The translations under genes and the position numbers were made by a program. A stretch of 64,000 nt of DNA, taken from contig JAGGVU010000019.1 of NCBI GenBank assembly GCA_021157845.1, positions 2,410-66,409 on the forward strand, written 5' to 3'. The first letter of the stretch is position 1. Each line of letters opens with the position of its first letter. The stretch comes from Candidatus Aenigmatarchaeota archaeon. Lineage in GTDB: Archaea; Aenigmatarchaeota; Aenigmatarchaeia; GW2011-AR5; JAGGXF01. The notes under the pieces were generated by a model, which saw only the letters and a list, made by a program, of their open reading frames with translations, was not told the origin of the DNA and ran no database searches. Positions 6,103-23,107 of the stretch are shown piece after piece.

Positions 6103-6140
<38 letters not shown>

Positions 6141-6232
6141 GCCATCTGAGTGGAGCTTTGGTGAGGCTTGTTCTAAAGTTGATTTTCAACTAATTGTACA
6201 AGTCGAACCAGAGCCCTACAAGGAGGGCTAAC

Positions 6233-7096
<864 letters not shown>

Positions 7097-7332: not shown

Positions 7333-9545
7333 TATGCAGCCTGCCAGCGCAGCTGGTGGGTGAAGTGTTAGATAATGCTTATAGCATTATCAATGAAACA
7401 ATCATAGGTTCAGTTGGAAAGATAGTTAGCTTCCTATATCATCTGGTGGATAACTTGGCTTAGCAACTGATGAAGGTCCTGGCAAGCTGGGATATGTCTA
7501 GGCGAGGCGCATGCAGCCTTAGAACCTAGAATTGCCGAATAGGACATCCTACCCTTTTGGGTACTCACATACGTGAGAAGCAACGCAGGGGATTGAAACA
7601 TCTTAGTACCTGCAGGAAAAGAAAGAAAAAAAATAGATATATGTAGATTTTATCTATATATATCTGACTCGATGCTGTTAGTAAGGGCGACCGAAAGCAG
7701 CACAGAACAAACCGAATCCTTTTTGGAAACAAAAAGGAGATGTGGGGTTGTAGGACCTGCTTCAGCCTAACTAACAAAGTCGAAATCTTTTGGAATAAAG
7801 TGCCAAAGAGGGTGAAAGCCCCGTAGACGTACGTTAGAAGGCCGATATGCAGAGTTCCTGAGTATGGCTGGCTGGATTGCCAGTCAAAATCTGGGAGTCA
7901 TCTACTCCCAATTCTAAATATTTGCTAAGTCCGATAGTGCACTAGTACCGTGAGGGAAAGTTGAAAAGCATCCGTAAAAGGAGTTGAAAAGAGCTTGAAA
8001 CCAGATGGTTACAGTTAGATGGATAGCTTCTGCTTATGCAGAGGTGAACCATCGTCCGTTTTGAAAAACGGGGCAGGGAGTTCATCTTTGTGGCAAGGCG
8101 AAAGCCATAGCGAAAGCGATTGTTCGTAGCTTGCGAAGAACACCGTATGAAAGTGCGGCTAGTCACAAGGATGAGACCAGAAACCAGATGATCTATTCCT
8201 GGGCAGGATGAAATCTTGGGAAACCAAGATGAAAGTCCGCAACCGTTGATGTCGCATACTCTCGGGTGACCTGGGAATAGGGGTGAAATTCGAAGATTAA
8301 ATATCATTTGTAGTTGATAGTCTTCGAACACCAAAAGCCAATCGAATCTGGTGATAGCTGGTTCCTTCCGAAATGTACCTTAGTACAGCCTGCTCTCTAT
8401 AGTCAATGGGGTAGAGTTACTGATTAGATAACCAAGGGAAGAGATTCCCAGTTATCTTGTCAAACTCCGAATCTATTGACATAATAGGAGCAGAGTGAGT
8501 GTATCGGAGTAATTTTGATACACAAGAGGGAAACAACCCAGACTAAAGTTAAGGTCCCTAAATATTGGTTAAGTGTTTTGAAGGTTGTTTTGAACTTAAG
8601 ACAGCGGGGAGGTTGGCTTAGAAGCAGCCATCCTTTAAACAACGCGTAATAGCGGACCCGTCAAAGTTCAAAGCGCTGAAAATAGGCAAATAAACAAAGT
8701 TTATTTGTAATTTTGCCTATCAGCAAAATAGGCGGGGCTAAACCAATTACCGATACTTTAGAAATGTTGTTTAACAACATTTGGTAGGAAGGCGTCCTGT
8801 AAGGGTAGAAGCTATTCTGTAAAGAATAGCGGACCTTATAGGAATGATAATCCTGTCGGGAGTAGCAAGAAGCTGGATTAAAATTCCAGTCGCTGAGAGA
8901 GCAAGGGTTCCCCAGTAAAGTTTATCTGCTGGGGGTTAGTCGGTCCTAAGGCCTTGCTTAACTGACAAGGTCGAAAGGGAAATCGGTTAATATTCCGATA
9001 CTGCTTACCATTTGCTATCCCTTCTTTTAAGTTTTTGGATATTCTGACTGCAGTCATCGCTGTAGCTAACTGTTGAAGCTGGGGGAGTGTTGTAATGACG
9101 AGAACCCAGTGAATGCAGGAATGGGGCGCTGTATAGTGCCTTCAGAAAAGTCCAAGAACCGATGAAAATATAGAAGGTAGAATGATAAGCATCCGTACCG
9201 AGAACCAATACAGGTGCTCTCGCTGAAACTTGAAGGAGCAACCTAATTTTGTTTCTCTTCAAGCAGCAAAAGGCGATGGCGTTCGGGATAATCTAGTTTA
9301 GGGAATTCGGCAAATTGGTCCTGTATCTTTGGTAGAAGGGATGCCTGACTAGAGGTAGTCAGGTCGCAGTGACAAGGAAAACCCGACTGTTTAATAAAAA
9401 CATAGTTGGCTGCTAAATCGAAAGGTTTTGTATAGCCAATGAGTCGTGGCCACTGGCGGTGTGTGATATCTGGTTTCAACCAGAAGAAGCCCCGCTGTAG
9501 GCCGGCCCTAACTCTGAGGGTCTTAAGGTGAAAATTGCCTTAATA

Positions 9546-10306
9546 AAATTTGGCTGTATGCTGAGACATCCAGTTAAGTTCTAGGTCCTGAGTAAGGAAC
9601 AATCCTAGAAATATGGACAATCAGCAGGAAACCGCGAGAGGTGATTTCTATGATAAAAAACAAATACCTTAACTGGTATTTAGTTGGCTTCACAGATGCA
9701 GAAGGTTGTTTTTCAATTTCATTAAAAAGAGAAAAAACAACTAAATTTGGATGGGCATTGGATCCAGTATTCCAAATAACACAGCATAAATCAAATGAAA
9801 AAGTTTTACATTTTTTCAAAAGACAACTGCATTGTGGAAGAATAATAGAAAAATCAGGACAACCAAATATTTTAGTTTATTTGGTTGATAATAGAAGACA
9901 ACTCGTAGAAAAAGTAATACCATTTTTCAAAAGATATAAACTGATTTTGAAAAACAACGATTTTCAGAAATTTACTGAAATTATAACAGACTTGGAAAAT
10001 AAACTGCATTCAAATAAAAAAACATTTATAGAATTAATAAAAAAATGTTTTGAAATGAATTTGAATGGTAAGCAAAGAAAATATGAGCTTGAATTTGTTT
10101 TGAAAAATCTAAAAAAATGAGCGGGATCCCCAGAGACTATACGCCAAACACAAAAATAGAACGGAGAGTATCCTTATTTTTGTGAAGAGATAGTCCGAAC
10201 CTTATGGAGACATAAGGAAACTTGTAGAAATACAAGTTCGCCTTATAGACAAAACATGCTTTGCATGTCAGTCTGTAAAGGTCATAAAGTAACAGATTGA
10301 GCGTAA
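9546..10306 (+). mobile_element. 23S rRNA intron 1 (about E. coli 1915-1930 region) with LAGLIDADG ORF
   Basis: Exon ...GGTGAAAATTGCCTT is interrupted and resumes at CCCTTGCCGGTTAAATGTTGGCCTGCA. Boundaries approximate. Confidence 0.5.
9641..10120 (+). CDS. LAGLIDADG homing endonuclease (single-motif)
   Basis: 159 aa; LVGFTDAEGCF motif. Confidence 0.7.
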   Translation: MISMIKNKYLNWYLVGFTDAEGCFSISLKREKTTKFGWALDPVFQITQHKSNEKVLHFFKRQLHCGRIIEKSGQPNILVYLVDNRRQLVEKVIPFFKRYKLILKNNDFQKFTEIITDLENKLHSNKKTFIELIKKCFEMNLNGKQRKYELEFVLKNLKK

Positions 10307-10804
10307 TCCCTTGCCGGTTAAATGTTGGCCTGCATGATAGATTAACGAGGTTTTCACTGTCCCAAACTAGACCCCGGCGAAACTATCTTTCTGGTGATTA
10401 GACCAGAGACCCCTAATGGGAAGAGTAGACCCCATGGAGCTTTACTGCAGTCTGTTGTTGTTGTATAATTATAATTGTATAGAGTAGGTAGGAGACGTCG
10501 ATATTAGGTCGTTAGATCTAATGGAGTCGCAATGTGTAACACTACCCTTTTATAACTATACAACTAACCTTCGGGGACATCAGCAGATGGGCAGTTTGAC
10601 TGGGGCGGTACGCCTCTGAAAGGATATCAGAGGTGCTCAAAGGTCGGCTCATCAGGGTCAGAAATCCTGAGTAGAGTGTAAAGGCAAAAGCCGGCTTGAT
10701 TGGATTTTGAACATCAAAAAATCCAAAGGCGAAAGCCTGACTTAGCGATACGCATGTTATCCTAGATGGATGCATGTGACATCAGAAAAGCTACCCTGGG
10801 GATA

Positions 10805-11528
10805 GTTTGTAGGTGGTTCTCAGTCGTTCAGCAAGCATATTCTAATTTTCGATCTCAAATACGAAAATTAGATAAGCTTACTTCACCTTAAATAAATCAT
10901 GAAAATTGAAAATTTTCAGTTAAACGCAAGAAATTTAACTAGTAACTATTTTTATGGATTTTTAGTTGGTGCTAGCGAAGACGGAACAGTTTATCAAAGA
11001 AAGAAGAAAAATGAATATATGGTAGAAATCGAGCAAAAATCTAAGTATTGGCTTGAATTTGTTCAGGAAATTATTTTGAGATTTTACAAAAAATCAGTGA
11101 AAATAAGAAAAACTTCAAAAGGATTTTACAGAATAAGAATTTATTCCAAGAAATTTTTCAATCAAATAAAAAAACACAGAATAAATTCCTCATGGATACT
11201 TAGAAAATCCAAAGAATTTCAACTAGGATTTCTTCAAGGAGTATATGATGCAGAAGGAAGTATTAAAAAATCCAGAAATCACATAACAATCAGTTCAAAT
11301 AGAAAAGATTTAATTAGAATATTACAGATTTTATTAACAAATCTTAATTTTAGACTAGGGAAAACTTGGAAAGATTATAATGGTGTTATTACTTTGCCAT
11401 TTTATGGTAAAGATAATCTGAAAAGATTTCAAGAATTAATAAATTTTAGACATCCGAAAAAGAAGGAAAGGCTTGCTGAGCTTCTGAACGATAATTACTT
11501 ACAGACCCCTAAAATGGTGTCGTAGCGG
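10805..11528 (+). mobile_element. 23S rRNA intron 2 (after CCCTGGGGATA, domain V) with LAGLIDADG ORF
   Basis: Conserved AAGCTACCCTGGGGATA is followed by non-rRNA sequence and the ORF. rRNA resumes near GAGAGTTCATATCGAC. Boundaries approximate. Confidence 0.5.
10899..11525 (+). CDS. LAGLIDADG homing endonuclease (double-motif)
   Basis: 208 aa; YGFLVGASEDGTV and LGFLQGVYDAEGSI motifs. Confidence 0.7.
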   Translation: MKIENFQLNARNLTSNYFYGFLVGASEDGTVYQRKKKNEYMVEIEQKSKYWLEFVQEIILRFYKKSVKIRKTSKGFYRIRIYSKKFFNQIKKHRINSSWILRKSKEFQLGFLQGVYDAEGSIKKSRNHITISSNRKDLIRILQILLTNLNFRLGKTWKDYNGVITLPFYGKDNLKRFQELINFRHPKKKERLAELLNDNYLQTPKMVS

Positions 11529-12157
11529 GTGAGAGTTCATATCGACCCCGCGTGTTGCGGCGTCGCTGTCGGCTCGCCCTCTCCTGGCTGTGCAGCAGCA
11601 GCCAAGGGTACCGGAGTTCACGGATTAAAAGGGCACGTTAGCTGGGTTTAGAACGGCGTGAGCCAGTTTGGACTATATCTGTTAGGGGTGCTTTTGTCTG
11701 AGAGTAAGGAAGAACAAGTACGAAAGGAACATTCTTCCGTGGCCTCTAGTCTACCAGTTGTCTGATAAGGCATCGCTGGGTAGCCACGCCACACGCGGAT
11801 AAGGGCTGAAAGCATCTAAGCCTCAAGCCGCTCTCGAAAATAGACAATGAGTGCCAGTAGAAGACTGGTTTGATAGGACAGGGGTGTAAGTATCAAGAAG
11901 AAATTCGAGATATTGAGCCTACTGTTACTAAAACTCACCAAAGCTAACCTTTAAATCAACTGAACCTGTGATTGTTTTTTTCTTTTTTTAAATTGTAGAT
12001 AAGTTTGATATTGCAGAAGCCTTTATAACTTAGAAGAGAAACAAAAAATAAAATCTACAGATAGAGAAGTTGCAATTACTCCGAAAGGTAAATCCTTTCT
12101 ATAAAGATTTATCTTTTACCTCAGTAATTTTTACAACTTTAGCATTTAAATAATTTA

Positions 12158-13544: not shown

Positions 13545-14351
13545 ATGGTTCAGAATATATTTCTCGGTCCAGCCGGCTCTCCGGAGAAAAGTACAATAAG
13601 TGGAATTGAGACTATAAGAAAACTTGGGCTTCAGGCCATGGAAGTTGAATTTACATATGGCGTCAGGATGAGCAATGCGCTTGCAAAGAAAATTGGTAAG
13701 ATAAACAAAAAAGAAAAAATAAAACTGAGTGTGCATGCTCCGTATTGGATTAATCTTGCATCTACCGATAAAAAGAAAATTGAAGCAAGCAAAAAAAGGA
13801 TTTTAACATCATGCGAACGTGCACATTACATGGGTGCAAGTCCGGTTGTTTTCCACCCGGCGTTTTATGGAAAGCTAGAGAAAGAAAAAATTTACGATAT
13901 GGTTAAGACTGCTGTTATAGAGATGAACGACATAATTAAAAAAAACAAATGGTCTGTTAAATTGGCACCAGAAACAACTGGAAAACATTCACAATTCGGG
14001 ACTTTAGACGAACTCATAAAACTTTCAAAAGAGGTAAAATGTTTCATCTGTGTAGATTTTGCGCATATCTATGCACGGAATGGTGGAAAAATTAATTATT
14101 CTGATATCTTAAAAAAGATGAAATCATTGCGTCACATCAAACATTACCATTCACATTTTTCTGGTATTGAATTTACAGCAAAAGGAGAAAAAAGACATAC
14201 TATTATGTCAAAACCGGCTTTCAGACCGCTGGCTAAGGAAATTCTTAAGAAAAAAATGAGCATCACGATAATAAGCGAAAGTCCGGTAACGTGGAAAGAT
14301 TCTCAAAAACAAAAAAAGATTTTTGAAGATTTCGGGTATAAATTTAGTTAA
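13545..14351 (+). CDS. nfo: endonuclease IV (AP endonuclease family 2)
   Basis: 268 aa; VHAPYWINL, VVFHPA, LAPETTGK, CVDFAHIYA metal-ligand motifs. Confidence 0.8.
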   Translation: MVQNIFLGPAGSPEKSTISGIETIRKLGLQAMEVEFTYGVRMSNALAKKIGKINKKEKIKLSVHAPYWINLASTDKKKIEASKKRILTSCERAHYMGASPVVFHPAFYGKLEKEKIYDMVKTAVIEMNDIIKKNKWSVKLAPETTGKHSQFGTLDELIKLSKEVKCFICVDFAHIYARNGGKINYSDILKKMKSLRHIKHYHSHFSGIEFTAKGEKRHTIMSKPAFRPLAKEILKKKMSITIISESPVTWKDSQKQKKIFEDFGYKFS

Positions 14352-14377: not shown

Positions 14378-15088
14378 GTGATAAAAGTGAAAACACTAAT
14401 TATTGCAGCAGGTAGAGGAAAGCGATTAGCCATGAAAAAATGGCCAAAGTCATTGATACGAGTAAATGAAAAAACAATAATCGAAACTATTTTAGACGCC
14501 TGTAATAGTGTTGGCTTAGACGAGTTTGTTATTGTTACGGGTTATGAAGGAGAAAAAATAAAAGAAGCACTAAAAAATGGTAAAAATAAGATAAAATATA
14601 TTGAGAACCCAAATTTTTCAGAAAAAGAAAATGGGTATTCAGTTTATTGTGCTAAAGATGTTCTTAAAGAGAATTTCTTACTTTTAATGTCTGATCACAT
14701 AGTTGAACCCACTATTTTAGAAAAAATGGTAAATTATGAGATAGCGGATGGTTGTGCACTTTGTATTGACAAAGACCTAGAAAATATATTTGATTTAGAT
14801 GAAGCCACAAAAGTTTATGAGCAGGACAAAAAAATTTTAGATATAGGTAAAAAGATTAAATTATATAATGCTGTTGATACAGGATGTTTTTTTTGTACCC
14901 CATATATTTTTGAATCGTTAGAACAATCGATGAAAAATGGAACAACTAAATTATCTGATGCCATGAAATTAATGGCTTCAGAGGGGAAATTATTTTCTAT
15001 AGATATTACAGGAAACTTTTGGATAGATATTGACACAGAGGAAGATTTACAATGTGCTAGAAATTACTTAAAATCCTTAAAAGCCTAG
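14378..15088 (+). CDS. sugar-phosphate nucleotidyltransferase family protein
   Basis: LIIAAGRGKRL N-terminal NTP-transferase signature; 236 aa. Confidence 0.65.
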   Translation: MIKVKTLIIAAGRGKRLAMKKWPKSLIRVNEKTIIETILDACNSVGLDEFVIVTGYEGEKIKEALKNGKNKIKYIENPNFSEKENGYSVYCAKDVLKENFLLLMSDHIVEPTILEKMVNYEIADGCALCIDKDLENIFDLDEATKVYEQDKKILDIGKKIKLYNAVDTGCFFCTPYIFESLEQSMKNGTTKLSDAMKLMASEGKLFSIDITGNFWIDIDTEEDLQCARNYLKSLKA

Positions 15089-15963
15089 TGTTTAATCCCA
15101 GTCATAATTTTATTTAATATCTTTTCAAATTTTTTTTCAAATTTTTCATCATATTCAACTATAGGTTTTAGACGAACAAGAGCCTCTACGAATTTTTTAT
15201 CATAAGGAAGCTTCCCGAGAATTGATAATTTATTTTTATATGCAAATTGCTCTATTTTTCTGCTGAAATTTCTACTTAGATCATACTTGTTTATAATTAT
15301 TCCACAAGGAATATGAAAATTATCGAGGATCTGGAGACTTCTTTTCATGTCATGAAATGCTGAAGGTGTCGGCTCAGTTACAATCGCTCCATAATCAGAT
15401 CCTTGTATAGAGGATATAACAGGGCACCCAATGCCAGCAGCGCAGTCTATTAACATTATATCAGCGTTCTTTGCTACTTTTGATGCCGTATTTTTTACTT
15501 CTATAATTATTTTACCGCTTCCACTTTCACCCATTTTTAATTTTCCTGTAACTATTGGAAATCCGTGTGTTTGGCTCACACCTATATACGCATTTTTTAC
15601 TTTTTTAAGTTTTATAGCGTTTTCAGGACACACCAATAAACAGGCACCACATCCTTCGCATCGCATTTCGTCGAAGACCGGCCGTTCTTTATCCCACGAG
15701 ATAGCTGAGAAGTTACAAACATGAACACATTTTTTACACCCTATACATCTTTTCTTTATCAATACCGCTTTTTCGTTTGTTGAAATTTCTCTCCACTTAT
15801 AATCATTTTGGCGCAGGCCCAAAACCAGACCAAGATTAGGAGCATCAATATCACAATCAACCGCAATTATCTTCTTTTTTTTGGATAGAAGTACAGCCAA
15901 AGATGCTGTTATTGTTGATTTACCGACCCCTCCTTTTCCTGAAAGTATTGCTATTTTTTTCAT
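15085..15963 (-). CDS. MinD/ParA-family P-loop ATPase with inserted 2x[4Fe-4S] ferredoxin domain
   Basis: ILSGKGGVGKST deviant Walker A; CIGCKKCVHVC and CEGCGACLLVCP cysteine clusters. Confidence 0.75.
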   Translation of the reverse strand: MKKIAILSGKGGVGKSTITASLAVLLSKKKKIIAVDCDIDAPNLGLVLGLRQNDYKWREISTNEKAVLIKKRCIGCKKCVHVCNFSAISWDKERPVFDEMRCEGCGACLLVCPENAIKLKKVKNAYIGVSQTHGFPIVTGKLKMGESGSGKIIIEVKNTASKVAKNADIMLIDCAAGIGCPVISSIQGSDYGAIVTEPTPSAFHDMKRSLQILDNFHIPCGIIINKYDLSRNFSRKIEQFAYKNKLSILGKLPYDKKFVEALVRLKPIVEYDEKFEKKFEKILNKIMTGIKH

Positions 15964-16349
15964 CTAAACACCATACTTTTCATTTTTAGTTTCTTTATTT
16001 TACTTTTATTAATCATAAACAAATGACTTTCACAATTACAATCAGAACATCCAAATCCTTTGATTGGAACAGAAAACCCCATTAATTTTTTTGCAATTAA
16101 GCACTCTAGGTTTTTTGGACCTTTTTTAACCAAAACATCCTTCACGTTTGCATGCTCTAGCAGATAGTCTATATGCCAGTGTTTTTTCTTTCGCCTTTTC
16201 AAATGTCTTTTAACTCTTTGTTCAATTCCATTTTGGGCAGAACCCACGTAAACATACATGCCTCTCTTAAAAGGTATATGACCGAGTGAGCCAACTCTGA
16301 TTTTAATATTTTTCTCCAAATTTATGATAAGCGCATATATCCCTTTCAT
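15960..16349 (-). CDS. DUF123-type GIY-YIG-like nuclease domain protein with C-terminal Cys cluster
   Basis: GIYALIINL...GMYVYVGSA...KKKHWHIDYLL pattern; GCSDCNCESH; start and stop overlap the flanking ATPase genes. Confidence 0.5.
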   Translation of the reverse strand: MKGIYALIINLEKNIKIRVGSLGHIPFKRGMYVYVGSAQNGIEQRVKRHLKRRKKKHWHIDYLLEHANVKDVLVKKGPKNLECLIAKKLMGFSVPIKGFGCSDCNCESHLFMINKSKIKKLKMKSMVFR

Positions 16350-17191
16350 TGTTTGTTCATCTTCTCTATTTTTTCAGCAAGTTTTTCTATATTTTTGTCT
16401 TTTATTAATTCACCTTTGGAATATTGTTGTTGTATTTTTTTGCTATAAGGTATTTCTGATATCATTTCTACTCCGTAATTTTTAGCCATCTGCTTTATTT
16501 TACTTTTTTTTGCTATATCTGATCTATTTAGAATTATCTTTGTCGGTATATCTAATTTTTTTGTAAGTTGCAAAATTAAATCCAAGTCATGCTCTCCAAG
16601 AGGTGTTGGTTCTGTAACTGCTAATGCCAAGTTACATCCATCCAGCGCCGCGATAACATCACAATGTGTGCCTGCGGCAGTGTCTATTAAAATAAAATCA
16701 TAATTGCCTTTTATTTCTTTTTTTAGGGAATCTACAATAAGTTCAGAGATAAGTTCACCGGGCATTAATTCACCACTGAGAAAAGATAGATTTTGGTTTT
16801 TCCCCACAAAAATATTACCGACAGTTTTCGAAGATTTGGTTATAGCGTTTTCAGGACATACCAATAAACAGGCACCACACCCATTACATTGCTCTCTGAA
16901 AAATATAGGATATTTGTTTTTAACTTGGAGGATAGCATTAGCTTTACAAGCTTCAGAACATTTCCCACATTTTATGCACCTATCGAAATTCCATTTCGGA
17001 ATCATTTGTTTTACTTCTTTCAATTTTTTTCTTTCTATAGATAAAATCAGATGATCATTTGGGCAATCTACATCAGCATCTACCAGAAGAACGCTATTTT
17101 TTTTAGAAAGATATCCAGCTAACGATGTAGATATAACTGACTTCCCAGTTCCGCCTTTTCCACCTGTGATTGCGATTCTCATGGTTTTCAT
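16346..17191 (-). CDS. MinD/ParA-family P-loop ATPase with inserted 2x[4Fe-4S] ferredoxin domain (paralog)
   Basis: ITGGKGGTGKSV; CIKCGKCSEAC and CNGCGACLLVCP. Confidence 0.75.
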   Translation of the reverse strand: MKTMRIAITGGKGGTGKSVISTSLAGYLSKKNSVLLVDADVDCPNDHLILSIERKKLKEVKQMIPKWNFDRCIKCGKCSEACKANAILQVKNKYPIFFREQCNGCGACLLVCPENAITKSSKTVGNIFVGKNQNLSFLSGELMPGELISELIVDSLKKEIKGNYDFILIDTAAGTHCDVIAALDGCNLALAVTEPTPLGEHDLDLILQLTKKLDIPTKIILNRSDIAKKSKIKQMAKNYGVEMISEIPYSKKIQQQYSKGELIKDKNIEKLAEKIEKMNKQ

Positions 17192-17763
17192 GAATAATCC
17201 CCAATATTTTTAAAATCTTTGATTAGAATAGCTTTCATGCTCGGATTATATGCAGCAACAGCTGGGTGATACATTGCTACTATTTTTTCAATACCTACAA
17301 GATTAGCCAATGTAAAAACCCTTCCATGTATACTGCTTATTTTTTCTTGCTTCAATCTAAATTTATCAAAAATATATGATAATGCAAAATTTCCTAATGT
17401 AACAATAATCTTTGGTTGAATTATTTTTATTTGTTCATCGAGATAAGGGCTGCATGCCTTTATCTGCTCTGGAGATGGATTTGCATTATCAGGTGGCCGA
17501 CACTTTAATATGTTTGTAATGTAAATATCTTTTCTTTTTAACCCAATTGAGTTGAGTAATTCGTCAAATATTTTTCCTGCCCTGCCTACAAATGGTTTGC
17601 CTTGTTGATCTTCATTATAGCCAGGCGCCTCACCTATAAACATAATATTAGTAGTTAATGAACCTTCCCCGACAACAGGATTAGTTCTGGTTTTCCATAG
17701 ATTACATCGCTTACACAGATAAATCTTTTGTTTCAACGAATTCATTTCATCAATCATACCCAT
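17188..17763 (-). CDS. udg: uracil-DNA glycosylase, family 4 (Fe-S type)
   Basis: CKRCNLW...GEAPG...GKPFVGRAG...HPA family-4 motifs. Confidence 0.8.
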   Translation of the reverse strand: MGMIDEMNSLKQKIYLCKRCNLWKTRTNPVVGEGSLTTNIMFIGEAPGYNEDQQGKPFVGRAGKIFDELLNSIGLKRKDIYITNILKCRPPDNANPSPEQIKACSPYLDEQIKIIQPKIIVTLGNFALSYIFDKFRLKQEKISSIHGRVFTLANLVGIEKIVAMYHPAVAAYNPSMKAILIKDFKNIGDYS

Positions 17764-17801
17764 CTTTTACCATAAATTTCAATTATATTTGATGCCGATT
17801 C

Positions 17802-19268
17802 TCATACCCGTCCCATAACCATTGCTATACCGAGGCAGATTATAATCAATCCAGCGACTAGATGTAAATAGCGAATATTCTTGTCCTTCCATCCGGAAAC
17901 GTCTTCGACCTTCTTAATTCCGGCGTAGACAACTAATGTTATAGCAATCATAGGTAGAACAAAAATTGAGTTATAAATCAATAACCATGGTATGGTTTTC
18001 ATCAGCTCAAGCGCAGATAATATACCACTTGCTATGACATAAGGTCCGATTGTGCAAGGTAAAAGAAACACTGTTACAAACAACCCAACCACAAACGCGC
18101 CCCTCGGTGATGTCACTCTTGATATGATTTTCTTAACCTTCGGTCGCAACATCATAGGCATCTCTGTTCCAAGTCTGCCAGGTTTGTAGTGAAAGAAATC
18201 CCTCAGGTTTAGCAAACCAAGTATCACTGCGAGCAAACCAAGTATTTTATACAACCACAGTCTAATCGCGGCGAGTGCCTGTATAAGCTGGAAGAATCTT
18301 ATAATAACCAAGCCATAGAAAAGATACATGACGAAAACCGATATCGTGAAAGCCAAGCCAGCCAGCAGAACATTTCTTTTCTTTTTCGGATTGTAAGTAA
18401 GTATTGCTATTAGCATCAGTGTAAGCACAGCCAAGGCGCACGGATTCACTGCATCAACAGCTGCCAGCGAAACTATTTTGGGTAGAGTCAAGTCTTTTTT
18501 AGTTTCCTCCTTGTTACTTCTATCTGTCTCGTTTACATCATTAGTCCAGTTGCCACCCGTTCCATTATTCTCCAGACCATTCCCATTCCATTGAAATGTC
18601 CAGCCTTTTAGCTTTATTGCGTTGTCAAATTTCACGCTACTTCCGGAGAGTGGAGCAGGTTTTGCATCAGTTGTCTCATAGCTTTTATTATTCAGCAAAG
18701 AGCAAGGCGTTTCGGTTCCCAACAAATCTTTTAGTAGTTGATTATCTCCCCCTTCCCCTGTCTTTATCAGAATTCTATCCTTGGCCCATATCTTCGGCTT
18801 TCCGGGCAATGATACAATGTCCATCTGACTAAACGGAACAGAAGAACCGTTCAGCAATGGGCAAGGATTCCAGCTAAGATTATTAATTGTTTTTTCCGCA
18901 TTTTGCAAAATCGGGATGTCACCAATAATATGTTTATCCTTGCTAAATATTATTAGAGGAATTCCAAGGCCGGAATTATAGTTAGAATCATAACCATAGA
19001 GCAGTTGAGCATTGTCCCGCTCTTGATAAATTTCATACTCAATTATAACCAGATCATTATATTCGTTGACAAGTTCACTAAGAACGACAGGGTCTGCTCT
19101 TGCACAGTGTGGGCAACCTACACCCGTGAAATAAACAGCACATACAATATTTGTATTATTGGTTATGTTATCAGAATCAGTCGCGAGTGCAAAAGCCGCA
19201 AATGTAGTTATGATTATTGGAATCAAAACAAGTACTGACAAAGTTTTCATTTTTCTCACCCCCCACAT
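17802..19268 (-). CDS. thioredoxin-fold (CPHC) domain fused to CcdA/DsbD-type transmembrane disulfide-transfer domain
   Basis: Signal peptide; GVGCPHCA; C-terminal multi-TM with NPCALAVL and LPCTIGPY. Confidence 0.65.
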   Translation of the reverse strand: MWGVRKMKTLSVLVLIPIIITTFAAFALATDSDNITNNTNIVCAVYFTGVGCPHCARADPVVLSELVNEYNDLVIIEYEIYQERDNAQLLYGYDSNYNSGLGIPLIIFSKDKHIIGDIPILQNAEKTINNLSWNPCPLLNGSSVPFSQMDIVSLPGKPKIWAKDRILIKTGEGGDNQLLKDLLGTETPCSLLNNKSYETTDAKPAPLSGSSVKFDNAIKLKGWTFQWNGNGLENNGTGGNWTNDVNETDRSNKEETKKDLTLPKIVSLAAVDAVNPCALAVLTLMLIAILTYNPKKKRNVLLAGLAFTISVFVMYLFYGLVIIRFFQLIQALAAIRLWLYKILGLLAVILGLLNLRDFFHYKPGRLGTEMPMMLRPKVKKIISRVTSPRGAFVVGLFVTVFLLPCTIGPYVIASGILSALELMKTIPWLLIYNSIFVLPMIAITLVVYAGIKKVEDVSGWKDKNIRYLHLVAGLIIICLGIAMVMGRV

Positions 19269-19323: not shown

Positions 19324-19683
19324 CTATATTTTATGTTCGTCGCAACTGTTATCTCTTGTTGCCTTCTCGAGCTTTCCAGATTTCCAAAGATCAAATATTT
19401 CTTTGGCAGTTTTTGCTTGGCTTGTATAAACAACAATTCCAAGCTTTTCACAAAGCTCTATGGCACTTGGGCCAATCCCTTGGCAAAGCAGAATATCAAT
19501 ATTATGCTTCTTAAGCAGTTCTGGCGGAAGTCCTGTTCCTCCCATATGTGCGCTCTCATTATTCAAGGTTTCAACAATTTTTCCATCCTCATCTATAATA
19601 AGATAAAATTCACATCTTCCGAAGTGATACGCGACATCGCTATATAATCCTTTGTTTTCATCGATTGGGATCGCAATTCTCAT
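19324..19683 (-). CDS. NifX/NifB-like (dinitrogenase FeMo-cofactor family) small protein
   Basis: MRIAIPIDE...HFGRCEFYLI...GVD/IL.. pattern; 119 aa. Confidence 0.65.
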   Translation of the reverse strand: MRIAIPIDENKGLYSDVAYHFGRCEFYLIIDEDGKIVETLNNESAHMGGTGLPPELLKKHNIDILLCQGIGPSAIELCEKLGIVVYTSQAKTAKEIFDLWKSGKLEKATRDNSCDEHKI

Positions 19684-20483
19684 TTTAACACCTCTTTTAC
19701 AATAGTATTTACAATATGCTTAAATTCCTCTGCGGATTCAAACGACTCAAGGACAAATGGCTTTTTCTTTTCTGCGCATCTTGCTATCCCCGCATCCAAT
19801 TTCAGCCTGCCTAAAAATTTTACTCCGATATCTGCTGCGGCCTTTTCCCCACCCCCAGTTCCGAATATTTCTCCAGACATGTTTTCTATGATACCCAGGA
19901 CAGGTATCTTAAGTTTTTTTGCCATATTTACTGATTTTTTTGCATCAACAACAGCTACATCTGTTGGTGTTGTTACTACAATTATACCATCTGGTACAAG
20001 CTCTTGCATAATTGTTAAAGAGCTATCGCTTGTTCCTGGCGGAAGGTCAATAACCAAATAATCCAGTTTACCCCATTCAACCTGCTCCAAAAGTTGCATT
20101 ATGGCCTTGGAGAGCATAGGTCCACGCCAGATAATAGGTTGGTCCTCTCTTTCTTGGAGCGACGCAAATGAAACCACATCTATGCCATATTTTTTGATTG
20201 GAATAATTTTTTCATTTTTCACAGATAAATGCTCCTCTATTCCCATAAATTTATTTACATTTGGACAGTCTATGTCAGCATCAAGAAGTGCAACGCGTAC
20301 AGGCTTTGTTGGTTCAGTTTTTGCCAGCGAAACTGCGAGATTGACTGCAACTGTTGTCTTACCAACACCACCTTTGCCGCTCATTACAGCTATTTTATAT
20401 TTTATTTTTTTCATATTTGCTTTTATTATTTCTCTTCTTTTCTGCATCTCTCTGCGCAATTCTAGGATATCCATATCAATCAT
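19680..20483 (-). CDS. Mrp/NBP35/ApbC-family Fe-S cluster carrier ATPase
   Basis: IAVMSGKGGVGKTT, DADIDCPN, DYLVIDLPPGTSD. Confidence 0.8.
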   Translation of the reverse strand: MIDMDILELRREMQKRREIIKANMKKIKYKIAVMSGKGGVGKTTVAVNLAVSLAKTEPTKPVRVALLDADIDCPNVNKFMGIEEHLSVKNEKIIPIKKYGIDVVSFASLQEREDQPIIWRGPMLSKAIMQLLEQVEWGKLDYLVIDLPPGTSDSSLTIMQELVPDGIIVVTTPTDVAVVDAKKSVNMAKKLKIPVLGIIENMSGEIFGTGGGEKAAADIGVKFLGRLKLDAGIARCAEKKKPFVLESFESAEEFKHIVNTIVKEVLK

Positions 20484-20500
20484 CTATTTTTATCAACTTT

Positions 20501-21745
20501 TTAGTCTTTCTTCCTCGTTTGTTTTGTTAATCTTTCAAGTTTATTTTTTAAGAAGTTATCTATAACCTCTTTTGCGGTTCTACCTTTTATCTTGTAGATG
20601 TCAATTAAATTATCTCGCATGCTGTGGAAGGAAATTTCGCCAATTTCTTTTGTTATGAGTATGTCTACTTTTTCTTTCAGAAGAAAATGTACAGTAGATA
20701 GTCCTGCACGGACGCTCTTGCTCTTATTTGGGTTCGGTTTTGAGTAAAATCTGCGGATAGATTTTCTTTCAGTTTCAACAAAGAGAAAATAATCTGCTCG
20801 GCCAAAATGTTCTACGACTACTGAATCCAACCCCTTTGGTTTTTTTATCGGTATCGCAACTTTATGTTTTAAGCTTTCATAAGGTTCTATATGAATAGTA
20901 AAGGAATTGACGTCTTTGAATTTCTTTTTTACTTTTCTTTCAATTTGATCAGCTATTTCATGTGCTTTGTTAACATTAGCAAATTTCTTAATTTTTATAC
21001 TAACCTCCCCAAAAATAAATGGTCCGGACCTCCTAAGTTTAAGATTATTCAAGCTTTCTACACCAGGAGTTAGCTTTATCTGCTTCTCTATGTTTTTAAC
21101 AAGTATTTTATTAGGACTGACATCCATCAATGAAAATATAGAATCCCTTAAACTAAAAAGCCCAAATTTAAGCACAATCATAGAAATTATTATTGTGATT
21201 AGCCCTTCTATATAAGGGATTTTATAATTAGAAAGCAGAATTGTAATAAAAACGATGAAAGAAACAAAAACATCTTTTAGCCGGTCCTTGCTCATTATAT
21301 CAAGGCTCTGGGAGTTTATTTCTTTACTAACTCTTTTTAAATATGCTGAGTTGACAAAGGCCACTAAGCCAGAACTTGCGGCAACGGTTAGTGAGATAAT
21401 AGGATGTTGGATAGTTGCCAGAGCAAAAATTCTCTGATACCCATCAAAAAGTAACCTTATAGCTCCATACGTTATAATTATAGAAATGAATAGGGCCGAT
21501 ATATTTTCAGCCTTATAATAGCCGTAAGGAAATTTTTCATTTGGCTTTCTTTGAGATAACTTGAGGCTAAAAAAAGATGCTAAGCCAGAAATTATATCAG
21601 ATGCTGACTCCAGTGCATCACTTATCAAAACCAATGAGCCAGACAAAAACCCAGCTATTCCTTTTGCTAAAGCTAAGAAAAGGGAAATAGATATAGAGAT
21701 GAGAGAGGCCTTTACTCCCATCTTTAAATCAGTTTCCTTATTCAT
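20501..21745 (-). CDS. cation diffusion facilitator (CDF) transporter fused to C-terminal NifX-like domain
   Basis: TM region with SGSLVLISDALES. C-terminal KVAIPIKK...HFGRADYFLFVE...DILITKEIG matches the NifX-like fold. Start codon uncertain; 21721 is an alternative. Confidence 0.6.
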   Translation of the reverse strand: MNKETDLKMGVKASLISISISLFLALAKGIAGFLSGSLVLISDALESASDIISGLASFFSLKLSQRKPNEKFPYGYYKAENISALFISIIITYGAIRLLFDGYQRIFALATIQHPIISLTVAASSGLVAFVNSAYLKRVSKEINSQSLDIMSKDRLKDVFVSFIVFITILLSNYKIPYIEGLITIIISMIVLKFGLFSLRDSIFSLMDVSPNKILVKNIEKQIKLTPGVESLNNLKLRRSGPFIFGEVSIKIKKFANVNKAHEIADQIERKVKKKFKDVNSFTIHIEPYESLKHKVAIPIKKPKGLDSVVVEHFGRADYFLFVETERKSIRRFYSKPNPNKSKSVRAGLSTVHFLLKEKVDILITKEIGEISFHSMRDNLIDIYKIKGRTAKEVIDNFLKNKLERLTKQTRKKD

Positions 21746-22139
21746 TCCATCTGCCTCTTCTTCCAAAGCCACGTCTAAATCCAAAACCAGCGGTTCTTAT
21801 CTGAGCCTTTTTCAGCTCTCCTCTTATAAATTTTTCTATGTTATCTTTTACAGTTCCGCCAACGCCTTCGTAGATTTCTATTTCAAGTTGCTGCAAAGCT
21901 GCAAAAGCCCTTGGGCCAAATGCCAGCGATATCGCAGCTTTTGCTTCTGTATTACCAACTATTTGCGCTGCTACTATGCCTGCTCCTCCCCTCTGATTTA
22001 TGGCAGGATTCTCTATTACTTCTGTACTTTTTATTTTATTATTTTCTATGTTCACAACTGCAAAATATGGGCATCTTCCAAAAATTGGACTTATCTGGCT
22101 TTCTATATCTTTTCCAGTTGAGCTAATTGCTACTTTCAT
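21738..22139 (-). CDS. NifX-like domain protein with Gly/Arg-rich tail
   Basis: MKVAISSTGKDIESQISPIFGRCPYFAVVNIENNK..., then TAGFGFRRGFGRRGRW tail. Upstream in-frame extension judged unlikely. Confidence 0.55.
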   Translation of the reverse strand: MKVAISSTGKDIESQISPIFGRCPYFAVVNIENNKIKSTEVIENPAINQRGGAGIVAAQIVGNTEAKAAISLAFGPRAFAALQQLEIEIYEGVGGTVKDNIEKFIRGELKKAQIRTAGFGFRRGFGRRGRWNE

Positions 22140-22322
22140 TTTTTTCACCTTCCTAACATACGGGTTCCACACTTTTGGCCCAACTTCTGATTGTATGGAA
22201 TACCCTCTGATGTGTATCTTTATATCCACATTTTGGACATATACATTCGGCTGTTCCAAAATCTTATTCCCACACCTATTCCTTGACCAGTTCCTCTTGG
22301 TATATTAATCATCTCTATATAT

Positions 22323-22565
22323 TTACCATCGCCCTCTTCCATCTCTTGGTCGTGGTAATCCTCTTGGATTTATGTCTGATTGGTGTCCAAATCCTCTGCC
22401 AAATCCTCTTCCACGACCGCGTCCTAGTCCAAATGGTCTGAATCTTGGTCGATAAGTTGGCTCTTTTTTCTCTGTTGTCGGGATTATACAATATCCACGA
22501 CCTCTTCCTGTCATTGGACCCTTTCCTTCTGGACCTGTTCCATCATATCCTGGCATGTTATTCAC
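22323..22565 (-). CDS. DUF5320-family protein (Gly/Arg-rich)
   Basis: MPGYDGTGPEGKGPMTGRGRGYC N-terminal signature followed by RGRGRGFGRGFG repeats. Confidence 0.55.
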   Translation of the reverse strand: MNNMPGYDGTGPEGKGPMTGRGRGYCIIPTTEKKEPTYRPRFRPFGLGRGRGRGFGRGFGHQSDINPRGLPRPRDGRGRW

Positions 22566-22583
22566 CTCCTTTCTAAATAAACA

Positions 22584-22991
22584 TTATTTTCTCCTCATAA
22601 AAGACCCGCATTTTTTACATTTAGTTTTGCTGCAGGGAATTCCTCTTATGTGATATTCTTTGTATCCGCATATAGGGCAGACACAATATTCTGATTTTTG
22701 AGCTATTCTATAATTACCACCCTTTATTTGAATCGCCTTCCCATTAATCAGCGCATCTGAAATCTTCTTTTTAGCTGAGTTCAGTATACGCTGAAAAGTG
22801 CCCCGGGAAATTTTCATCTTTTTGGCGCATGCTTTTTGGTTAAGCCCATTAAGGTCTTTCAATTTTATTGCTTCAAGTTCCTCTATTTTTAGTATAACCT
22901 TTTCTAAATCTGAAAGGGGAATTCTCCTTGGTTTGAAGTAGTTTACCTCTGGTTCATTCTGAACTATTCTTATTTTTCTCGGTCTTACCAT
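22584..22991 (-). CDS. DUF134-family predicted DNA-binding regulator with C-terminal zinc ribbon
   Basis: MVRPRKIRIV..NYFKPRRIP...LEAIKLKDLNGLNQKACAKKMKISRGTFQRIL; CPICG...CKKCG. Confidence 0.6.
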   Translation of the reverse strand: MVRPRKIRIVQNEPEVNYFKPRRIPLSDLEKVILKIEELEAIKLKDLNGLNQKACAKKMKISRGTFQRILNSAKKKISDALINGKAIQIKGGNYRIAQKSEYCVCPICGYKEYHIRGIPCSKTKCKKCGSFMRRK

Positions 22992-23107
22992 ACTGTGCAT
23001 ATGCACATAAATGTTTATAAAGCTATTGTTACGACGATTTTATGCAGAAAGCAATTTTTATGAATTATTTATAAATAATTCGTCATAATCTAATTTAATG
23101 TGATGAT

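What the first reader, a model, noticed from the sequence alone, without database searches (positions are those of the whole stretch)
15085..17763. Overlapping four-gene operon: family-4 UDG, MinD/Fd ATPase, DUF123 GIY-YIG-like nuclease, MinD/Fd ATPase
The four minus-strand genes overlap by 4 nt at each junction (ATGA-type). This implies translational coupling of a Fe-S uracil-DNA glycosylase, a small GIY-YIG-like DUF123 protein with a C-terminal Cys cluster, and two paralogous MinD/ParA ATPases carrying 2x[4Fe-4S] ferredoxin inserts. This operon ends 1.4 kb before the Fe-S/metal cluster at 19324-23006, with only the thioredoxin::CcdA gene between them, and the MinD/Fd ATPases share the same DUF134/DUF5320/NifX family association. 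That suggests a larger module linking Fe-S handling to DNA base-excision enzymes. The function of ferredoxin-inserted MinD ATPases is unknown.
Basis: partly seen in the sequence, partly recalled or inferred. Interest (0 to 1): 0.6.

Follow-up and report, generated by a model that had tools for sequence, protein, structure and literature searches.

The report
Repair nuclease embedded between Orp-type ATPases
In this small anaerobic archaeon, a uracil-removing DNA repair enzyme and an uncharacterised ancient nuclease are built into one tightly overlapping operon with two iron-sulfur ATPases of the poorly understood "orange protein complex" type; the nuclease-ATPase pairing recurs in other lineages and even occurs as one fused protein, which gives a testable lead on two families of unknown function.

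Summary
Four minus-strand genes (family-4 UDG, MinD/Fd-A, DUF123, MinD/Fd-B; 15085-17763) are joined by three ATGA overlaps, and every family assignment is confirmed. The window comes from a Candidatus Aenigmarchaeota MAG. The operon is the 3' end of an 11-gene same-strand run (to 23006): DUF134, DUF5320, NifX-like, CDF::NifX, a split MrpORP-like Mrp+NifX pair, and a Trx/DsbD-like membrane protein. This matches the Desulfovibrio "orange protein" (ORP) cluster, so the MinD/Fd pair is Orp3/Orp4-like by architecture. The conserved core is A-DUF123-B. It recurs in at least six other lineages, often with the same 4-nt overlaps. Two related MAGs encode A and DUF123 as one 402-aa polypeptide, and A::B tandem fusions also exist. 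UDG4 is a recurrent but optional member, found in the same operon at different positions in two other lineages. Elsewhere DUF123 pairs with an Ogg glycosylase, UDG4, MutS or SfsA, and the literature reports EndoIII fusions. The A-B slot is variable (MBL plus radical SAM, DnaJ plus methyltransferase, or empty). Best reading: an Orp3/4-type ATPase pair physically partnered with a GIY-YIG repair nuclease. The mechanism is inferred, not shown. I rate it a new variant of a known kind, moderately interesting.

The parts
17188..17763 (-). Family-4 uracil-DNA glycosylase ([4Fe-4S] type), first gene of the overlapping unit
   Evidence: PF03167 E=1.9e-37. TIGR00758 228 bits, above its cutoff of 125; Arch_udg 246 bits against a cutoff of 250. 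Best PDB match 4zbx, E=2e-56, with CxxC...C...C, GEAPG and HPA motifs aligned.
16346..17191 (-). MinD/Fd ATPase 'A' (Orp3/Orp4-like): deviant Walker A P-loop with an inserted 2x[4Fe-4S] ferredoxin domain
   Evidence: CbiA, ParA and Fer4 families. More than 3267 homologues at E<=1e-20. The A-type orthologue always precedes DUF123 in other loci. Fused to DUF123 in P0327 and P0391.
15960..16349 (-). DUF123 / COG1833 'Uri' GIY-YIG-type nuclease with an invariant Cys3-His site
   Evidence: PF01986 E=3e-30. Invariant over 157 sequences: Y32, Y34, R45, H49, H59, D61, E82, C83, D103, C104, C106, H109; Y5 is 156/157. AF2 model pLDDT 92.8. Weak fold matches to T5orf172 and GIY-YIG endonucleases.
15085..15963 (-). 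MinD/Fd ATPase 'B', paralogue of A (40% identity)
   Evidence: The B-type orthologue follows DUF123 in L003/L081, L005, L021, L032 and L037. Tandem A::B-type fusions of about 610 aa exist.
17188..17191 (-). ATGA overlap UDG/A
   Evidence: Read directly.
16346..16349 (-). ATGA overlap A/DUF123 (same overlap in L003, L005, L021, L032, L167)
15960..15963 (-). ATGA overlap DUF123/B (same overlap in L003, L095, L167)
17764..17801 (-). 38-nt spacer with a TATA-like AAATATAA (17783-17790) about 24 nt upstream of the UDG ATG; a possible own promoter with a leaderless transcript (inference only)
17802..19268 (-). Membrane protein with an N-terminal CPHC thioredoxin-like motif and a DsbD/CcdA-like C-terminal domain; a recurrent member of these clusters (L005, L044, L117, L161)
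   Evidence: DsbD_2 E=5.6e-5, just below cutoff; tblastn recurrences.
19324..19683 (-). NifX-like protein matching the C-terminal domain of MrpORP (Orp9)
   Evidence: PF02579 E=1.9e-16; NF041136 positions 265-360.
19680..20483 (-). Mrp/NBP35-type ATPase matching the N-terminal domain of MrpORP; overlaps the NifX-like gene by 4 nt (a split Orp9); lacks the CXXC motif
   Evidence: PF10609 E=1.7e-79; NF041136 positions 1-251, 254 bits; sequence read.
20501..21784 (-). CDF metal efflux transporter fused to a NifX-like domain
   Evidence: The same fusion precedes A in L005, L021, L174 and L176.
21738..22259 (-). NifX-like protein (Orp5/Orp8-like domain)
   Evidence: PF02579 E=5.6e-20.
22323..22565 (-). 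DUF5320 RG-rich small protein
   Evidence: PF17253 E=2.7e-12.
22584..23006 (-). DUF134 HTH protein with a Cys-rich C-terminus; likely regulator at the head of the cluster
   Evidence: PF02001 E=1.5e-27. Present in most DUF123-containing clusters.

Best explanation
The four genes are one translationally coupled unit at the 3' end of an ORP-like ('orange protein complex'-like) metal-cluster gene neighbourhood of an anaerobic Aenigmarchaeote. A and B are Orp3/Orp4-type MinD-family ATPases. Each carries a 2x[4Fe-4S] ferredoxin insert, and they most likely form an ATP-dependent heterodimer. DUF123 is a catalytically intact GIY-YIG nuclease that acts as a stoichiometric partner of the A subunit. UDG4 is co-produced as the upstream glycosylase. 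Proposed working: UDG4 removes uracil and leaves an abasic site, and DUF123 incises DNA at or next to the glycosylase product. The A/B pair gates or recruits the nuclease, in the way other MinD/ParA ATPases recruit partner proteins when ATP-bound, with the ferredoxin domains making this dependent on redox state. SHOWN: gene identities, the overlaps, recurrence of A-DUF123-B, A::DUF123 and A::B fusions, intact catalytic residues, and repeated DUF123-glycosylase neighbourhoods. INFERRED: complex formation in this organism, the DNA substrate, and gating by ATP and redox state.
For: Identities. ORP likeness: Orp3/Orp4 are described as paralogues with two [4Fe-4S] motifs, Orp5/Orp8 as metal-cluster proteins and Orp9 as Mrp/NBP35. 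The window's Mrp plus NifX pair covers the MrpORP model at positions 1-251 and 265-360. Recurrence: A-DUF123-B occurs in L003/L081/L167, L005, L021, L032 and L037, with L004 partial. These carry labels from Iainarchaeum, Nanoarchaeota and 'Methanosarcinales' MAGs, and the 4-nt overlaps recur. An unbiased neighbour census puts MinD/Mrp ATPases as the top same-strand neighbour family, in 12 of 77 loci. 7 of 81 well-flanked loci have a MinD/Fd-query hit within 2 kb, one of them (L058) a ferredoxin-domain match only. Fusions: P0327 and P0391 (402 aa, 71% identical to each other, in two MAGs plus separate Logan contigs assembled from one run, SRR32938011) are A::DUF123 in the same NifX, CDF::NifX, [A::DUF123], B context. 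About ten tandem MinD/Fd::MinD/Fd proteins of roughly 610 aa were listed, two confirmed by Pfam. Nuclease and repair link: catalytic residues are invariant in 157 sequences. DUF123 overlaps an Ogg glycosylase gene in L164. UDG4 sits in the same operon in L005 and L021 and close by in L156. MutS follows DUF123 in Brocadiaceae, and SfsA::DUF123 fusions occur. EndoIII::COG1833 fusions are reported in the literature.
Against: There is no biochemical evidence for any DUF123 protein, and no solved relative. Foldseek against the PDB gave nothing, and the viral library gave only weak GIY-YIG-type hits. The A-B slot is variable, and 0 of 4 randomly sampled A homologues carried DUF123 or UDG. DUF123 also sits in DUF134 clusters with no MinD/Fd at all (L161, L044), which fits shared regulation as well as a complex. 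The fusion represents a single evolutionary event. UDG4 co-location is only marginally above chance by count: 3 of 82 loci against an expected 0.7, by my own rough estimate. Most DUF123 genes, about 80%, have no such neighbours. An EndoIV-like gene nearby could already supply AP-endonuclease activity.
Confidence: 0.4

Rival explanations
1. Shared regulation only. UDG4 and DUF123 are ordinary repair enzymes that have been recruited into a DUF134-controlled, redox- or metal-responsive regulon. They are made together with the ORP-like proteins under reducing conditions, with no physical or mechanistic interaction with the ATPases.
For: DUF134 is the commonest shared element of DUF123-containing clusters, including clusters without MinD/Fd (L161, L044). 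The position of DUF123 and UDG4 inside clusters varies. The A-B slot holds unrelated genes elsewhere. In Desulfovibrio the orp operons are switched by a redox sensor.
Against: The A::DUF123 fusion is maintained over 29% sequence divergence. ATGA coupling on both sides of DUF123 recurs in several lineages.
Confidence: 0.22
2. Client maturation. The ORP-like machinery (Mrp, NifX-like carriers, A/B ATPases) builds or inserts the metal centres of UDG4 ([4Fe-4S]) and DUF123 (Cys/His site), and the repair genes sit in the operon as clients.
For: UDG4 has the four Fe-S cysteines. DUF123 has invariant C83, C104, C106 and H109. MrpORP transfers Fe-S clusters to apo-proteins. MinD/Fd::NifU_N fusions exist. 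In Thermoplasmata, DUF123 directly follows a HypA plus Mrp-type ATPase metallochaperone pair in 12 loci.
Against: The conserved DUF123 site is Cys3-His, which is more typical of zinc; the fourth Cys (C101) is present in only 63% of sequences. Both fused versions have lost C101 and C104 yet keep the catalytic residues, which is odd if the ATPase's job were to load that site. The window's Mrp lacks the CXXC motif. Stable fusion of a chaperone to its client is unusual.
Confidence: 0.2
3. Chance packing in a compact DPANN genome. Unrelated genes are squeezed into operons with 4-nt overlaps, so the arrangement carries no functional meaning.
For: 4-nt overlaps are common in this window, 6 of 37 junctions. 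The exact four-gene order was found only here.
Against: The A-DUF123-B arrangement recurs across distant lineages far above expectation, and fusions exist.
Confidence: 0.06
4. DUF123 is a selfish free-standing GIY-YIG homing endonuclease that has inserted between two conserved paralogous genes.
For: GIY-YIG enzymes include free-standing homing endonucleases. DUF123 occupies an intergenic slot that is empty in some relatives (L173, L034, L078).
Against: It is about 130 aa with no DNA-binding module. Residues are invariant across 157 sequences and the family has 4548 representative clusters. It is embedded in operons by translational coupling, fused to host proteins, and sits in stable lineage-specific synteny in Bathyarchaeia and Thermoplasmata. 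No second copy occurs in the window.
Confidence: 0.03

Closest known systems
[quoted passage not shown]
   Same: Two adjacent paralogous MinD-like proteins, each with two [4Fe-4S] ferredoxin motifs and about 40% related to each other. NifX-like metal-cluster proteins. An Mrp/NBP35 ATPase joined to a NifX-like domain. Restricted to anaerobes, with an archaeal origin proposed.
   Different: No nuclease or glycosylase is reported in the Desulfovibrio operons orp3-4-5 and orp7-8-9. Here Orp9 is split into two genes and lacks CXXC. The likely regulator is DUF134, not sigma54/OrpR. Additional CDF::NifX and Trx/DsbD-like genes are present. I made no direct sequence comparison with the DVU proteins.
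COG1833 / DUF123 'Uri' GIY-YIG family, including the EndoIII::COG1833 fusions MJ0613 and MMP0538 (Dunin-Horkawicz et al. 2006)
   Same: Same family (PF01986), same C-terminal His/Cys cluster, and the same suggested link to a DNA glycosylase and base-excision repair.
   Different: The partner here is a family-4 UDG encoded separately. The nuclease is sandwiched between, and elsewhere fused to, MinD/Fd ATPases. That link is not mentioned in the paper or in any paper found by my searches.
UvrC N-terminal GIY-YIG domain (3' incision in nucleotide excision repair)
   Same: Same superfamily and catalytic residue set (Tyr, Tyr, Arg, Glu). It is a damage-directed nick made only after an ATPase partner (UvrB) has prepared the site.
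   Different: No UvrB-binding or EndoV/HhH domains. The Asn metal ligand is replaced by Asp plus a Cys/His cluster. The ATPase partner belongs to a different class.
MinD-MinC / ParA-ParB type partnerships and Nbp35-Cfd1 / ApbC Fe-S scaffolds (SIMIBI P-loop ATPases)
   Same: Deviant Walker A with the signature lysine in both A and B. Dimer-dependent partner binding or cluster handling is the family's usual way of working. The best PDB sequence matches are MinD and Mrp-type HypB.
   Different: A and B score far below the MinD cutoffs (84 and 56 bits against 202). They carry an inserted di-cluster ferredoxin domain, and no solved structure has this architecture.

Membership tests
Family-4 uracil-DNA glycosylase | Family HMM above the curated cutoff | tested here: met
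   TIGR00758 227.7 bits against a cutoff of 125.3. The archaeal equivalog NF040953 scores 246 against 250, just below.
Family-4 uracil-DNA glycosylase | Four Cys ligands of the [4Fe-4S] cluster and the GEAPG / HPA motifs | tested here: met
   C17, C20, C88 and C104, plus GEAPG and YHPA, align with 4zbx (S. tokodaii UDG4), E=2e-56.
DUF123 / COG1833 | PF01986 above the gathering score | tested here: met
   104.9 bits against 25, E=3.1e-30.
DUF123 / COG1833 | C-terminal His/Cys-rich cluster replacing the GIY-YIG Asn motif | tested here: met
   The FGCSDCNCESH motif is present. D103, C104, C106, H109 and C83 are invariant in 157 sequences, consistent.
GIY-YIG nuclease superfamily | GIY and YIG motifs, catalytic Arg and Glu | tested here: met
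   G3-I-Y5 and Y32-V-Y34-V-G are present. Y32, Y34, R45 and E82 are invariant, and Y5 is 156/157. The secondary-structure order beta-beta-alpha-alpha-beta-alpha fits the fold.
GIY-YIG nuclease superfamily | Significant sequence or structure match to established members | tested here: inconclusive
GIY-YIG nuclease superfamily | Nuclease activity | not testable with these tools
   No biochemical data were found for any DUF123 member.
Orp3/Orp4 (ORP complex MinD/Fd ATPases) | MinD-like P-loop plus two [4Fe-4S] ferredoxin motifs, as an adjacent paralogous pair | tested here: met
   (40% identity), matching the description.
Orp3/Orp4 (ORP complex MinD/Fd ATPases) | Encoded with NifX-like (Orp5/Orp8) and MrpORP (Orp9) genes | tested here: met
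   19324-22259 encodes three NifX-like domains and an Mrp that matches NF041136.
Orp3/Orp4 (ORP complex MinD/Fd ATPases) | Direct sequence orthology to DVU2103/DVU2104, and membership of a physical ORP complex | not tested
MrpORP (Orp9) equivalog | Full-length match above the NCBIfam cutoff, and a CXXC Fe-S motif | tested here: not met
   The match is split over two genes: 254.5 bits for positions 1-251 and 41.6 bits for positions 265-360, against a cutoff of 450. The Mrp has only C73 and C236 and no CXXC.
MinD (cell-division) proper | TIGR01969/TIGR01968 above cutoff | tested here: not met
   83.5 bits (B) and 55.7 bits (A) against a cutoff of 201.75.

The most novel reading that the evidence does not exclude
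Orp3/Orp4-type MinD/Fd ATPases are DNA-directed machines. As an ATP- and redox-gated heterodimer they bind and deploy a GIY-YIG nuclease (DUF123), together with glycosylases such as UDG4. On this reading the enigmatic ORP system of anaerobes has a DNA-processing role, which could underlie its cell-division phenotype in Desulfovibrio, and COG1833 is the incision enzyme of an ATPase-controlled archaeal base-excision or alternative-excision pathway.
Probability: 0.17. Interest if true: 0.8.

Novelty: new variant of a known kind. Interest (0 to 1): 0.58.

Why it matters
Two widespread families still lack a function. COG1833/DUF123 has 4548 representative clusters and was flagged as a putative repair nuclease by 2006. 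The Orp3/Orp4-type MinD/Fd ATPases have more than 3000 close homologues, and the role of the ORP complex has remained unclear since 2011. Conserved translational coupling, and above all a natural A::DUF123 fusion, give a concrete and inexpensive experiment: co-express A, B and DUF123, with or without UDG4, and assay for complex formation and incision of uracil or abasic DNA. This could assign a function to both families. It may also matter for how genome-reduced anaerobic archaea carry out base-excision repair. If the link turns out to be only regulatory, the finding is a modest note on operon organisation.

Tried and rejected
2. An NJ tree of 157 DUF123 sequences was too poorly resolved to say whether the sandwich DUF123s form one clade.
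3. I tested whether the variable fourth cysteine (C101) tracks the ORP context: 11 of 15 against 74 of 126, no clear difference.
4. I tried to build a combined alignment for modelling the A::DUF123 fusion. MAFFT placed the stand-alone DUF123 sequences on the N-terminal domain, so the prediction was not run.
5. Literature searches for DUF123 with GIY-YIG, COG1149 and DUF134 returned nothing relevant. The Fievet 2011 paper is not held.
7. The sigma-70 promoter scanner was not used because the organism is archaeal. A simple TATA-like pattern search was used instead and is only suggestive.
8. The homing-endonuclease and chance-packing readings were considered and given low weight, for the reasons listed under the rival explanations.


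Full report
**1. Observation**

The window is archaeal. It carries an rRNA operon and an archaeal RNase P RNA. The DUF123 protein is 100% identical to a protein from a Candidatus Aenigmarchaeota MAG.

- UDG: 17188-17763
- MinD/Fd-A: 16346-17191
- DUF123: 15960-16349
- MinD/Fd-B: 15085-15963

Each junction is an ATGA with a 4-nt overlap.

Family assignments all hold:
- The UDG is family 4. TIGR00758 scores 228 bits against a cutoff of 125. It aligns with the S. tokodaii enzyme 4zbx, including all four cluster cysteines.
- DUF123 matches PF01986 at E=3e-30.
- A and B are MinD-type P-loop proteins with two CxxCxxCxxxC motifs each, and they are 40% identical.

Four-nucleotide overlaps are common in this genome: 6 of 37 same-strand junctions. 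On their own the overlaps only indicate a compact operon.

**2. Surroundings**

The unit is the 3' end of an 11-gene same-strand run with gaps of at most 63 nt:
- DUF134: 22584-23006
- DUF5320: 22323-22565
- NifX-like: 21738-22259
- CDF::NifX: 20501-21784
- Mrp/NBP35: 19680-20483, overlapping a NifX-like gene (19324-19683) by 4 nt
- A membrane protein with a CPHC motif and a weak DsbD_2 match: 17802-19268
- Then UDG, A, DUF123 and B

The Mrp and the NifX-like gene together cover the NCBIfam MrpORP model, at positions 1-251 and 265-360.

The literature describes the Desulfovibrio ORP complex as follows. Orp3 and Orp4 are paralogues with two [4Fe-4S] motifs. Orp5 and Orp8 are metal-cluster proteins. 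Orp9 (MrpORP) is an Mrp/NBP35 Fe-S carrier. The role of the complex is still unclear. It may involve cell division, and an archaeal origin has been proposed.

By architecture and neighbourhood, A and B are therefore Orp3/Orp4-like. I could not compare them directly with the DVU sequences.

A TATA-like octamer sits about 24 nt upstream of the UDG start codon. The four genes may therefore have their own promoter and a leaderless transcript. This is inference only.

**3. Is the arrangement conserved?**

I collected 160 DUF123-centred loci from reference genomes and metagenomes. I added targeted look-ups.

*The A-DUF123-B sandwich.* It recurs in six other lineages:
- L003/L081/L167 (A -4 DUF123 -4 B)
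- L005
- L021 (with a radical-SAM gene added)
- L032
- L037 (with an extra 156-aa ORF)
- L004 (partial)

A-type and B-type orthology and gene order are preserved throughout.

*Other positions in DUF134/NifX/Mrp clusters.* DUF123 also sits elsewhere in such clusters:
- L044: DUF134-DUF123-Trx/DsbD
- L078: Mrp-DUF123, in a Dehalococcoidales bacterium
- L095, L117, L055 and L034
- L161: another Aenigmarchaeote, with no MinD/Fd at all

*Counts.* An unbiased clustering of neighbours found MinD/Mrp ATPases to be the commonest same-strand neighbour family, in 12 of 77 loci. Among 81 distinct loci with at least 2 kb on both sides:
- 7 have a hit to the MinD/Fd queries within 2 kb; one of these, L058, is a ferredoxin-domain match only.
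- 10 have some ORP-like marker.
- 7 more, all Thermoplasmata, have a HypA plus Mrp-type ATPase pair directly upstream.

*The reverse view.* The slot between A and B is variable. Four A homologues chosen only for contig length showed:
- MBL plus radical SAM (L170, L171)
- DnaJ plus a methyltransferase (L172)
- nothing (L173, a Parcubacteria MAG)

None had DUF123 or UDG. DUF123 is therefore a recurrent accessory of these clusters, not a core part.

**4. Fusions**

A profile search of 1.84 billion representatives found 4548 DUF123 clusters at E<=1e-10. Nearly all are stand-alone proteins of about 130-160 aa.

P0327 (402 aa) is a MinD/Fd ATPase fused to DUF123. A second protein, P0391, has the same architecture and the same junction sequence (ESLGGVYA). 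It is only 71% identical to P0327. The two lie in two different MAGs and on separate Logan contigs assembled from one run (SRR32938011). Both sit in the same context: NifX, CDF::NifX, [A::DUF123], B. An assembly artefact is therefore unlikely, although the fusion is probably a single evolutionary event.

The same search listed about ten proteins of roughly 610 aa. Pfam showed that the two I checked are tandem MinD/Fd::MinD/Fd fusions.

These fusions argue that A pairs with B and that DUF123 associates physically with A.

Both fused DUF123 domains keep the catalytic residues but have lost C101 and C104.

**5. What DUF123 is likely to do**

Across 157 sequences the GIY-YIG catalytic set is essentially invariant: Y5 (156/157), Y32, Y34, R45 and E82. 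So are D103, C83, C104, C106 and H109. C101 is Cys in only 63%. The conserved metal site therefore looks like Cys3-His, not a four-cysteine Fe-S site.

The AF2 model is confident (pLDDT 92.8), and its topology fits the GIY-YIG fold. Independent fold evidence is weak.

The neighbourhood and fusion partners point to nucleic-acid repair:
- UDG4 sits in the same operon here, in L005 (UDG -4 Mrp ... A -4 DUF123 -16 B) and in L021.
- UDG4 lies two genes upstream in L156.
- An Ogg-type 8-oxoG glycosylase gene overlaps DUF123 in another Aenigmatarchaeote.
- MutS lies downstream in Brocadiaceae.
- SfsA::DUF123 and DUF123::HAD fusions occur.
- EndoIII::COG1833 fusions are published, and they led to a base-excision proposal in 2006.

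By count alone, UDG4 co-location is only marginally above chance.

**6. Mechanism**

I favour, at about 0.4, a physical module. An Orp3/4-type A/B ATPase heterodimer has DUF123 as a partner on the A subunit, and UDG4 supplies abasic sites for DUF123 to incise. The ATPase gates or recruits the nuclease in an ATP- and redox-dependent way.

The rivals:
- **Shared regulation under DUF134 only (0.22).** This is supported by DUF123 in clusters without MinD/Fd and by the variable slot.
- **Metal-centre maturation of UDG4 and DUF123 as clients (0.20).** This is supported by the HypA/Mrp neighbourhood and by NifU fusions. It is weakened by the Cys3-His site, by the loss of cysteines in the fusions and by the Mrp lacking CXXC.
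- **Chance packing (0.06).**
- **A selfish homing endonuclease (0.03).**

**7. Novelty and score**

All the parts belong to known families, and the ORP cluster type is known. What appears new is the embedding of a GIY-YIG repair nuclease between the Orp3/4-type ATPases, its fusion to one of them, and the recurrent presence of UDG4. None of my literature searches found this. That search library is incomplete.

I rate the finding a new variant of a known kind, with interest about 0.58. It is not startling, but it turns two long-standing function-unknown families into a directly testable pair.

Noticed in passing
window 4504-6256 and 7423-11950: The archaeal SSU and LSU rRNA genes are much longer than the Rfam models (1753 nt against 1478, and 4528 nt against 2987). 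They probably carry large insertions or introns, as is known in some DPANN lineages.
   Followed up: no
window 13545-14351 (+): An AP_endonuc_2 TIM-barrel protein (PF01261, E=1.6e-25) whose best NCBIfam hits are deoxyribonuclease IV, though far below cutoff. It is a possible AP endonuclease lying 733 nt beyond the end of the operon on the opposite strand.
   Followed up: partly
window 15612-15664 and 16840-16892: A 53-nt stretch in the second ferredoxin motif is 89% identical between the A and B genes, although the proteins are only 40% identical overall. This may reflect local gene conversion or strong constraint.
   Followed up: no
window 15085-15088: The stop of MinD/Fd-B and the end of the convergent nucleotidyltransferase gene (14378-15088, +) overlap by 4 nt. 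This leaves no room for a terminator between the two convergent genes.
   Followed up: no
window 19680-20483: The Mrp/NBP35-type ATPase has no CXXC motif (its only cysteines are C73 and C236). It cannot bind a bridging [4Fe-4S] cluster in the canonical way, despite its strong match to MrpORP and ApbC.
   Followed up: partly
window 22989-23021: A TATA-like TTTATAAA at 23014-23021 lies only about 15 nt upstream of the annotated GTG start of DUF134. The real start may be the internal ATG at 22991, with a leaderless transcript.
   Followed up: no
L007, L019, L023, L040, L047, L050, L104, L120, L123, L140, L146, L151: In 12 loci, those with organism labels being Thermoplasmata-type, a HypA gene (PF01155) and an Mrp-type ATPase gene (PF10609) lie upstream of DUF123, directly so in most. 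In at least six of them (L007, L009, L019, L039, L040, L047) conserved 103-aa and 209-aa genes follow DUF123. This is a second, independent link between DUF123 and a metallochaperone ATPase.
   Followed up: partly
L170, L171, L172, L173: The slot between the two MinD/Fd genes is variable, and its contents are usually joined by 4-nt overlaps. It holds an MBL-fold hydrolase plus a radical-SAM gene, or DnaJ plus a methyltransferase, or nothing. The clusters also carry ZIP, ArsP, thioredoxin and NifU genes.
   Followed up: partly
P0218, P0236; P0420, P0424, P0427, P0434 and others: MinD/Fd proteins fused to NifU_N (about 397 aa), and tandem MinD/Fd::MinD/Fd proteins of about 610 aa.
   Followed up: partly
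L035, L063, L075; P0317, P0360, P0390, P0294: Other DUF123 fusions: SfsA (OB domain plus restriction-endonuclease-like domain)::DUF123 in bacteria, DUF123::HAD hydrolase, and PterinBD-DUF4346::DUF123.
   Followed up: partly
L068, L071, L076, L079: In Brocadiaceae (anammox bacteria), mutS lies shortly downstream of DUF123 on the same strand.
   Followed up: no
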